Positions 53,365 to 53,558 of a stretch of DNA of 64,000 bases are shown one piece after another. The DNA comes from Eledone cirrhosa. Taxonomy: Eukaryota. The notes beneath the pieces are model-generated. The model saw only the letters and a list, made by a program, of their open reading frames with translations, was not told the origin of the DNA and made no database searches. Position 1 is the first letter of the stretch; every line of letters begins with the position of its first letter. The stretch lies in NCBI GenBank assembly GCA_964016885.1, contig OZ024756.1:31124001-31188000 (forward strand), in the 5' to 3' direction. Both the position numbers and the translations under genes were made by a program.

Positions 53365-53558
53365 ATAGGAACCAGTAAGACCCCGACAGCTGAGCTCAAG
53401 CCGTTTCGACGGCTAATTCTGTCTAGAATTAGCCGTCGAAACGGCTTGAGCTCAGCTGTCGGGGTCTTACTGGTTCCTATTACCCACTCTACTACCTCAA
53501 GTATTGAGTACTTTGGTGCGTTATGGTCCACCTGGTTCCTTACCACATTTCCTTCGTT
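53365..53558 (+). mobile_element. Family H4 element folded back at hammerhead stem II
   Basis: Perfect 56-bp arms (53365-53420/53425-53480); GAAA-C-GGC/ttgagctca/GCT-GTC at 53438-53460; (TA)n on both sides. Confidence 0.85.

What the first reader, a model, noticed from the sequence alone, without database searches (positions are those of the whole stretch)
53365..53558. Three H4 insertions all fold back at hammerhead stem II
Seen: copies at 27998-28192, 53365-53558 and 58986-59193 share one architecture: (TA)n, element 3' end, cleavage site and stem III, GAAA, stem II, then an inverted copy that stops at CCTAT and merges into (TA)n. All lack the CUGANGA half. Their turn points differ (loops ggactc, gtct, and a full stem II plus re-priming), and copy-specific variants appear on both arms, pointing to independent events. 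Inference: reverse transcription primed in TA reads through the uncleaved or religated site, stalls in stem II, the cDNA snaps back and self-primes, then joins the target by TAT microhomology. Inverted termini are known for Penelope-like elements; a ribozyme helix as the reproducible turn point is the unusual part.
Basis: partly seen in the sequence, partly recalled or inferred. Interest (0 to 1): 0.82.

Follow-up and report, generated by a model that had tools for sequence, protein, structure and literature searches.

The report
Head-to-head Penelope-like stubs in TA repeats
These short mirror-image insertions in TA repeats have the layout already described for Penelope-like jumping genes, likely made by two separately primed DNA copies joined head to head rather than by one copy folding back on a ribozyme helix, and their arms tend to stop at one shared spot that may be the start of the RNA.

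Summary
The three inverted, TA-flanked copies are real. A fourth, missed copy at 28211-28316 is inverted but not palindromic. The layout (head-to-head arms, a 77-nt tail on one arm only, (TA)n target) is the published Penelope-like element anatomy. Palindromic junctions and a self-priming explanation were published in 2013.

Public reads show a multi-copy family with many different junctions, so it is not one palindromic master. They support a shared end point: 11 of 15 listed joints start the tail-less arm within 7 nt.

They do not support fold-back at a hammerhead stem II. The native upstream letters are not the arm's mirror and hold no CUGANGA in the 30 letters shown. No copy keeps the native loop. 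In 6 of 15 joints the tail arm stops before the part that a snap-back would have to copy. A complete hammerhead in the window turns inside its core, after its whole stem II.

Best reading: two-ended (twin) priming at two internal RT start sites, then end-joining. The cause of the hot spot is open; an RNA 5' end at a conserved TTAGT is the lead. Hammerhead status is unproven.

The parts
53365..53420 (-). c53 tail-less inverted arm (strand = inferred RNA sense); its outer end merges into (TA)n at the CCTAT site
   Evidence: 56 of 56 letters complementary to the other arm
53421..53424 (.). c53 junction (GTCT), assignable to either arm
53425..53480 (+). c53 tail-bearing arm, body
53438..53460 (+). 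putative hammerhead 3' half (GAAAC ... GTC with palindromic TGAGCTCA loop); one stem III pair is G-U in this copy; unproven
   Evidence: sequence; (fails the strict test here, passes in c59); one search shows a rival hairpin with GAAA in its loop
53481..53557 (+). 77-nt one-sided tail, ends in (TA)n
53111..53364 (.). (TA)n target tract, left of c53
53558..53705 (.). (TA)n target tract, right of c53
28000..28137 (-). c28 tail-bearing arm (tail 28000-28076); ends at the position matching 59124
28138..28194 (+). c28 tail-less inverted arm; 6 of 56 differences to its partner arm
28211..28258 (-). fourth copy (second subfamily): tail-less inverted arm
   Evidence: resembles the subfamily in the loose ends at 59070
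28256..28316 (+). fourth copy: partial tail only (about 61 nt), joined head to head over a 3-nt TAA overlap; no palindrome
58987..59124 (-). c59 tail-bearing arm (tail 58987-59063)
59125..59134 (+). c59 short copy of the arm start at the junction (not native stem II)
59135..59194 (+). c59 tail-less inverted arm
32299..32590 (+). internal control from another family: complete hammerhead core (CTGATGA reads at 32397 on the - strand; the two arms mirror each other), 97-nt arms, tail of about 85 nt on one side, turn inside CUGAUGA with a 1-nt centre

Best explanation
The copies are short head-to-head insertions in (TA)n with a tail on one arm only, likely stubs of a Penelope-like element made when both DNA ends of a break in (TA)n each prime reverse transcription and the two cDNA ends are then joined.

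SHOWN: the anatomy in 4 of 4 window copies; a fixed outer end of the tail-less arm at the CCTAT site; many independent junctions; tail-less arms that often begin within 59134-59140 while the tail arm stops anywhere from 59030 to 59124.

INFERRED: (1) A GIY-YIG/RT dimer cuts both strands of (TA)n. (2) One end primes at the RNA's outer start site and gives the tail-bearing arm; the other primes at an inner site 77 nt upstream and gives the tail-less arm, as shown in vitro for the anole element. (3) Both cDNAs often end about 13-18 nt upstream of GAAA. (4) Their 3' ends are joined with 0-3 nt of overlap and filled in. This gives a palindrome when both reach that spot (c28, c53, c59) and a plain inversion when the tail arm stops early (fourth copy).

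The cause of the shared end is the weakest step. I put about 0.4 on an RNA 5' end at a conserved initiator-like TTAGT, 0.3 on a stall at the element's imperfect native hairpin, 0.15 on a 3' splice site and 0.15 on other causes.
For: Anatomy matches published PLE insertions: inverted 5'-truncated copy, tail at one end, (TA)n bias (PMC8557442; PMC3846280). In vitro, a PLE protein cuts and extends both target strands, is predicted to be a dimer, and starts RT at two internal sites that bound the tail (PMC11167929).

Fourth copy: the inverted arm has no template in its partner arm, with a 3-nt overlap at the joint. Reads and contigs: 6 of 15 listed joints leave from inside the tail and 9 of 15 leave at or before 59069; 11 of 15 enter at 59134-59140 (binomial p about 1e-5 to 3e-7 for a visible range of 35-50 nt). 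Tail-less ends are common in raw reads: depth 457+3001 at 59189-59196 and 675 loose ends into TA at 59064, against 8500+1228 at the tail end.

The tail-less end sits at the same aligned position in two subfamilies with different local letters. No 3'-end fold-back is predicted for four cDNA ends, and the 32299 palindrome has a 1-nt centre, too tight for a hairpin. For the RNA-end idea: c28 and c59 tail arms both end exactly at 59124, and the letters ACTAA at 59122-59126 are shared, in register, by the loose ends of two subfamilies.
Against: No PLE reading frame could be linked: there is no genome, and no GIY-YIG or PLE RT among 244 of 313 window frames scanned. The tail (77 nt) is longer than the published 30-40 bp.

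Asymmetric joints could come from palindromes that later lost one side by deletion at the hairpin tip. The split of 11 joints with a fixed tail-less end against 1 with a near-fixed tail-arm end does not exclude this, because the visible ranges differ. Palindromic molecules are probably under-counted in short-read data, which would inflate the asymmetric class. Only 15 of 52 joints were displayed, and 14 of those 15 rest on contigs of one run (X1). RAD read counts are not locus counts.

Both c59 arms share a minority allele, which a snap-back predicts directly and two-ended priming explains only if both RTs used the same RNA or source locus. Many copies run on past the hot spot (930 reads with loose ends behind 59124; 1805 reads cover 59121). 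No downstream promoter element is evident by eye, and no RNA data were available.
Confidence: 0.6

Rival explanations
1. Snap-back self-priming: one cDNA or RNA end folds back at a native hairpin and is extended, and asymmetric forms are later deletions.
For: 3 of 4 window copies are palindromes with 4-11 nt centres. c59's minority allele is on both arms. By eye, the native upstream letters could close an imperfect hairpin (6+4 pairs around a 10-nt loop) whose loop covers the hot spot, and the second subfamily's X24 consensus also shows an AGCC there. PMC3846280 proposes self-priming for such palindromes.
Against: The native loop is kept in none of 3 copies. No in-register fold-back is predicted. 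The fourth copy and 6 of 15 joints lack the template. The 32299 family turns in the core, past its stem II. No CUGANGA was found, so the hairpin is not shown to be a hammerhead stem II.
Confidence: 0.2
2. DNA-level fold-back: a direct stub was inserted first, and a break in the flanking (TA)n or a replication template switch later made the inverted duplication, with no RT involved.
For: The window has short inverted duplications around (TA)n tracts with no evident element features (29941-30166, 25900-26423, 29489-29844) and a palindrome in a tandem repeat (41892-42230).
Against: It does not explain why the arm ends at one fixed element position in 4 of 4 copies and thousands of reads, nor the clustered inner end, nor the non-palindromic inversions.
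Confidence: 0.08
3. A palindromic master element (MITE-like) is copied as a unit.
For: c53 and c59 are 93-96% alike and of similar length.
Against: The three centres differ. There are 52 joints. Centre depth is about 3% of arm depth in X1. 930 raw reads, 63 X1 contigs and 1 X4 contig run on past the turn into other sequence. The tail is on one side only.
Confidence: 0.04
4. The palindromes are assembly or library artefacts.
For: No read or contig spans a whole palindrome, and perfect arms in c53 are what chimeric reads would give.
Against: c28's arms differ at 6 of 56 sites. Tail-less TA junctions and head-to-head joints occur in independent runs and studies. The arm end is tied to one element position.
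Confidence: 0.05

Closest known systems
Canonical endonuclease-bearing Penelope-like element insertions with an inverted 5'-truncated copy and a one-sided tail (e.g. Pen2a_Av of Adineta vaga, PMC3846280; Fig. 2 legend of PMC8557442; (TA)n-targeting Hydra and Naiad clades)
   Same: Head-to-head inverted arms, tail on one arm only, microsatellite target that hides any target-site duplication, palindromes at the inverted junction.
   Different: Stub-sized (about 190-205 nt) with no reading frame; tail 77 nt rather than 30-40; arm ends cluster in about 7 nt; no complete hammerhead found; clade not determined.
Poseidon element of the green anole (PAc), in vitro (PMC11167929)
   Same: Two internal RT start sites bounding the tail, with both target strands cut and extended, would give a tail-bearing and a tail-less arm. 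Hammerhead cleavage is not needed there, and no insertion ends pile up at the GUC site here.
   Different: In the two parts read, that paper gives no model for how the inverted junction forms; the start sites there lie in an AC-rich stem-loop inside the ORF.
L1 twin priming (Ostertag and Kazazian 2001, as summarised in PMC9148063)
   Same: The second target strand primes internally, giving a head-to-head inversion; the fourth copy and the joints leaving from the tail fit this pattern.
   Different: Here the internal site is fixed, and the two cDNAs often copy the same segment (a palindrome), which needs two RNAs or strand displacement.
Type I hammerheads of PLE pseudo-LTRs (PMC4209133) and non-LTR retrozymes (bioRxiv 10.64898/2026.07.22.740005)
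   Same: C before GAAA, GAAAC...GUC, palindromic loop; opposite-strand pairs of hammerheads 100-700 bp apart are already reported.
   Different: No CUGANGA found; stem III is longer than in metazoan minimal hammerheads and than in the complete ones in this window; no tandem array.

Membership tests
Penelope-like element (EN+) | RT plus GIY-YIG reading frame in the full-length element | not testable with these tools
   Stubs are too short to hold it; no genome is held. No PLE domain in 244 of 313 window frames scanned; collection scans gave 0 true hits.
Penelope-like element (EN+) | Inverted 5'-truncated copy joined head to head | tested here: met
   4 of 4 window copies; 52 joints.
Penelope-like element (EN+) | Tail present on one end only | tested here: met
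   77-nt tail on one arm in 3 of 3 palindromic copies, partial tail in the fourth; longer than the published 30-40 bp.
Penelope-like element (EN+) | Insertion bias for (TA)n microsatellites | tested here: met
   4 of 4 window copies; 675 loose ends into TA at 59064.
Penelope-like element (EN+) | Hammerhead in the pseudo-LTR (absent in Naiads) | tested here: inconclusive
   Possible 3' half only; the 5' half was not seen within 48 nt upstream of GAAA.
Penelope-like element (EN+) | Partial tandem forming direct pseudo-LTRs | not testable with these tools
   Needs full-length copies.
Type I hammerhead ribozyme | CUGANGA core 5' of stem II | tested here: not met
   None upstream in 3 of 3 copies; none in the 30-letter loose-end consensus of X24, X1 and X4. 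A core further upstream is not excluded.
Type I hammerhead ribozyme | GAAA, stem III and UH site | tested here: inconclusive
   Passes in 2 of 4 copies (c59: 54 of 2000 shuffles; fourth copy: 43 of 2000), fails in c53 and c28; a rival hairpin puts GAAA in a loop.
Type I hammerhead ribozyme | Native stem II closed by G10.1-C11.1 | tested here: inconclusive
   C precedes GAAA; by eye the native upstream letters give an imperfect hairpin that does not close on the three bases before GAAA.
Type I hammerhead ribozyme | Self-cleavage at UH | not testable with these tools
   No RNA run was listed; no pile-up of ends or joints at 59084.
MITE (palindromic master) | Inverted repeats reaching both termini and a shared interior among copies | tested here: not met
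   One-sided tail, three different centres, 52 joints.
Non-LTR retrozyme | Head-to-tail tandem units, each with a complete type I hammerhead | tested here: not met
   No tandem units among the 4 window copies; no complete core.

The most novel reading that the evidence does not exclude
The shared end marks the 5' end of the element's RNA (or an exon boundary) that falls between the two halves of its hammerhead. The leading copy of the repeat in the transcript then carries only half a ribozyme and cannot cut itself off. A Penelope-type dimer primes both target strands at the two start sites next to that 5' end and runs off it, minting fixed-length head-to-head stubs. Thousands of such junctions would be an in-vivo record that decides between two-ended priming and self-priming for the inverted repeats of Penelope-like elements.
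Probability: 0.2. Interest if true: 0.62.

Novelty: new member of a known kind. Interest (0 to 1): 0.3.

Why it matters
As found, it is one more family with the standard Penelope-type insertion layout. Its use is as a test set. How these elements form their inverted copy is described as unresolved (PMC8557442 discussion), and this family mixes palindromic and non-palindromic inversions that share one arm end. Mapping them genome-wide would separate two-ended priming from self-priming and show whether the shared end is a transcript start, a splice site or a structural stall.

Tried and rejected
Rfam scan of the window: among the 150 of 362 matches displayed, none was a hammerhead family; they were microsatellite and palindrome hits to miRNA models below their thresholds. 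Whole genome: none held.

Collection scans: metagenome 0 hits; 1 hit, L001, which lies inside bacterial-looking coding sequence with no flanking similarity and was rejected as chance; viral 0; prokaryote genomes 0.

Earlier-findings look-ups by place, by sequence and by one word set gave nothing. Pfam on 244 of 313 frames (left out: the LINE region except its main frame, and low-complexity frames): only the LINE at 8434-12066 and weak zinc-finger hits.

Folding the arms gave no unusual stability (z 0.96, 0.26, 0.22, 0.59, -0.72). Type II/III hammerhead layouts: rejected by eye, no CUGANGA downstream of GUC. Cleavage at the upstream GUC in the hot spot: rejected, because six joints carry one or two native letters from beyond it (table 5c).

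Literature: no paper held all of Penelope, hammerhead, palindrom, truncated, junction. Penelope + twin priming + inverted gave 2 papers; the passages read in one concern L1 only and the other was seen as a listing. Searches showed no title on a fixed turn point; most subscription papers are not searched.

Full report
OBSERVATION. The window is microsatellite-rich, with 239 (TA)n tracts; I infer an animal host. The three described copies are present. Each has a 77-nt tail running into (TA)n, a body with GAAAC...GTC, a centre, and an inverted arm that stops at the CCTAT site and merges into (TA)n. Arm pairs differ at 0, 1 and 6 of 56 positions (c53, c59, c28), fewer than between copies. The centres are GTCT, GACT and an 11-nt stretch. 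No CTGANGA lies upstream of GAAA in any copy. A similarity search found a fourth relative beside c28. Alignments show a tail-less arm (28211-28258) joined head to head to only 61 nt of tail (28256-28316) over a 3-nt overlap. It is inverted but not palindromic.

POPULATION DATA. No genome is held. Of 24 listed runs, 14 hold the stretch or a part of it, from 10 studies. I laid 4 of them on c59: 23,247 raw RAD reads (X24), 15,376 contigs (X1), 36 (X4) and 2 (X5). Read ends pile up at the AATT sites (59117, 59141), which I take to be the library's enzyme, so mainly reads with A59115T see past it. RAD counts are not locus counts.

First result: many copies run on beyond the turn. There are 930 reads, 63 X1 contigs and 1 X4 contig with loose ends behind 59124. 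Their consensus begins AAATTA in all three runs, and X1 and X4 agree at 19 of the first 22 letters; overall agreement is low (0.45-0.48). This native continuation is not the mirror of the arm and holds no CUGANGA in the 30 letters shown, that is within 48 nt of GAAA. By eye it can close an imperfect hairpin of 6+4 pairs with a 10-nt loop. So c59's 'full stem II' is junction sequence, and none of the three copies keeps the native loop.

Second result: 52 joints were found and 15 displayed. Their left ends spread from 59030 to 59118, with 6 inside the tail and 9 at or before 59069. Their right ends cluster: 11 of 15 at 59134-59140 (p about 1e-5 to 3e-7), and six joints into 59138 carry one or two extra letters that match the native sequence. 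Joints entering more than about 10 nt further upstream would be invisible, and palindromic molecules are probably under-counted.

Third result: tail-less ends are common (depth about 3,460 at 59189-59196, plus 675 loose ends into TA at 59064, against about 9,730 at the tail end). Nothing piles up at the supposed cleavage site (59084). A second subfamily shares ACTAA at 59122-59126 in register, and the c28 and c59 tail arms both end at 59124. On the RNA strand this reads TTAGT, which resembles both an initiator and a 3' splice site (both consensus motifs recalled, not from a call).

IS IT A HAMMERHEAD? Not shown. The 3' half passes a strict test in 2 of 4 copies, with 54 and 43 of 2000 shuffles also passing. 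An alternative hairpin puts GAAA in a loop. The complete hammerheads in this window look different (short palindromic stem III). One of them forms the same arm-and-tail palindrome, but its turn lies inside CUGAUGA, past a -9.1 kcal/mol stem II, with a 1-nt centre. Stem II is therefore not a general turn point here.

MECHANISM. The best fit is two-ended priming (0.6). An inverted arm with no template in its partner cannot come from one cDNA folding back, and no in-register fold-back is predicted for the four cDNA ends tested. A PLE protein has been shown to cut and extend both target strands and to start at two internal sites that define the tail (PMC11167929, parts 1-2 of 4 read). Joining two such cDNAs gives all four window copies. 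The main rival is snap-back with later one-sided deletion (0.2). For it speak the three palindromes, the minority allele on both c59 arms and the native hairpin, and my joint counts do not exclude it. DNA-level fold-back (0.08), artefact (0.05) and a palindromic master (0.04) fit worse. The reason for the shared end is open; an RNA 5' end is my lead (about 0.4). In D. virilis Penelope the start site lies upstream of the intron, and the intron ends at hammerhead helix I (PMC2377424 passages; PMC4209133 parts 1-2 of 4), so a start inside the ribozyme would differ from that case.

COMPARISON. The inverted 5'-truncated copy, one-sided tail and (TA)n bias are standard for PLEs (PMC8557442 passages). 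Palindromes at the inverted junction, read as self-priming, are in PMC3846280 (passages). Twin priming is described for L1 (PMC9148063 passages). Retrozymes need tandem units with full hammerheads (bioRxiv 10.64898/2026.07.22.740005, part 1 of 5), which are absent here. No supplements were read; those of PMC8557442 and PMC4209133 list hammerhead and half-core cases that may bear on this family. Membership in PLEs rests on anatomy alone, since no reading frame could be tested. Earlier scan notes from other genomes describe the same layout; they are unchecked and are not counted as support.

VERDICT. A real feature and a new member of a known kind. The shared end point is a true detail; its reading as a fold-back at hammerhead stem II is not supported. 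Interest 0.3. The bold case, a transcript end or exon boundary splitting the ribozyme and recorded by the stubs, has probability 0.2 and interest 0.62.

Noticed in passing
window 32299-32590: Palindromic insertion of another family with a complete hammerhead (36-nt stem II region, short palindromic stem III), a tail of about 85 nt on one side, and the turn inside CUGAUGA with a 1-nt centre.
   Followed up: partly
window 4238(-), 16653(+), 47678(+), 17579(+), 28544(-), 3241(+), 15920(+): Further type I hammerhead cores. The first six have a folded stem II region of 13-31 nt, and the first five a short palindromic stem III, like the minimal hammerheads of Penelope-like elements; 15920 did not fold in the simple test.
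   Followed up: partly
window 16917-17342, 24553-24787, 27326-27666: Three more TA-flanked head-to-head insertions from other families; the first two have a one-sided tail. The third has arms of 118 and about 225 nt against the direct copy at 46405-46714 and a GAAA-stem-AUA motif with no CUGANGA in about 230 nt upstream (by eye).
   Followed up: partly
window 25900-26423, 29489-29844, 29941-30166: Short inverted duplications whose two arms flank a (TA)n tract (the opposite layout); possibly DNA-level fold-backs at TA tracts.
   Followed up: no
window 41892-42230: 167-nt-arm palindrome (96% complementary) inside a tandem repeat.
   Followed up: no
window 8434-12066 (-) and 6894-7976 (-): Intact-looking 1211-aa LINE frame (AP endonuclease, RT, C-terminal C2H2 fingers) with a 5'-truncated tandem copy of its end; RTE-like by recall.
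   Followed up: no
loose ends at 59070 and 59114: A second subfamily, abundant in raw reads (1642 and 1268 loose ends), differs upstream of GGCTA but keeps ACTAA at the same register.
   Followed up: partly
joint 59197 to 58981: 13 raw reads join a tail-less end through a short TA run to the tail end of another copy: repeated insertion into the same TA tract, as at window 28194-28211.
   Followed up: no
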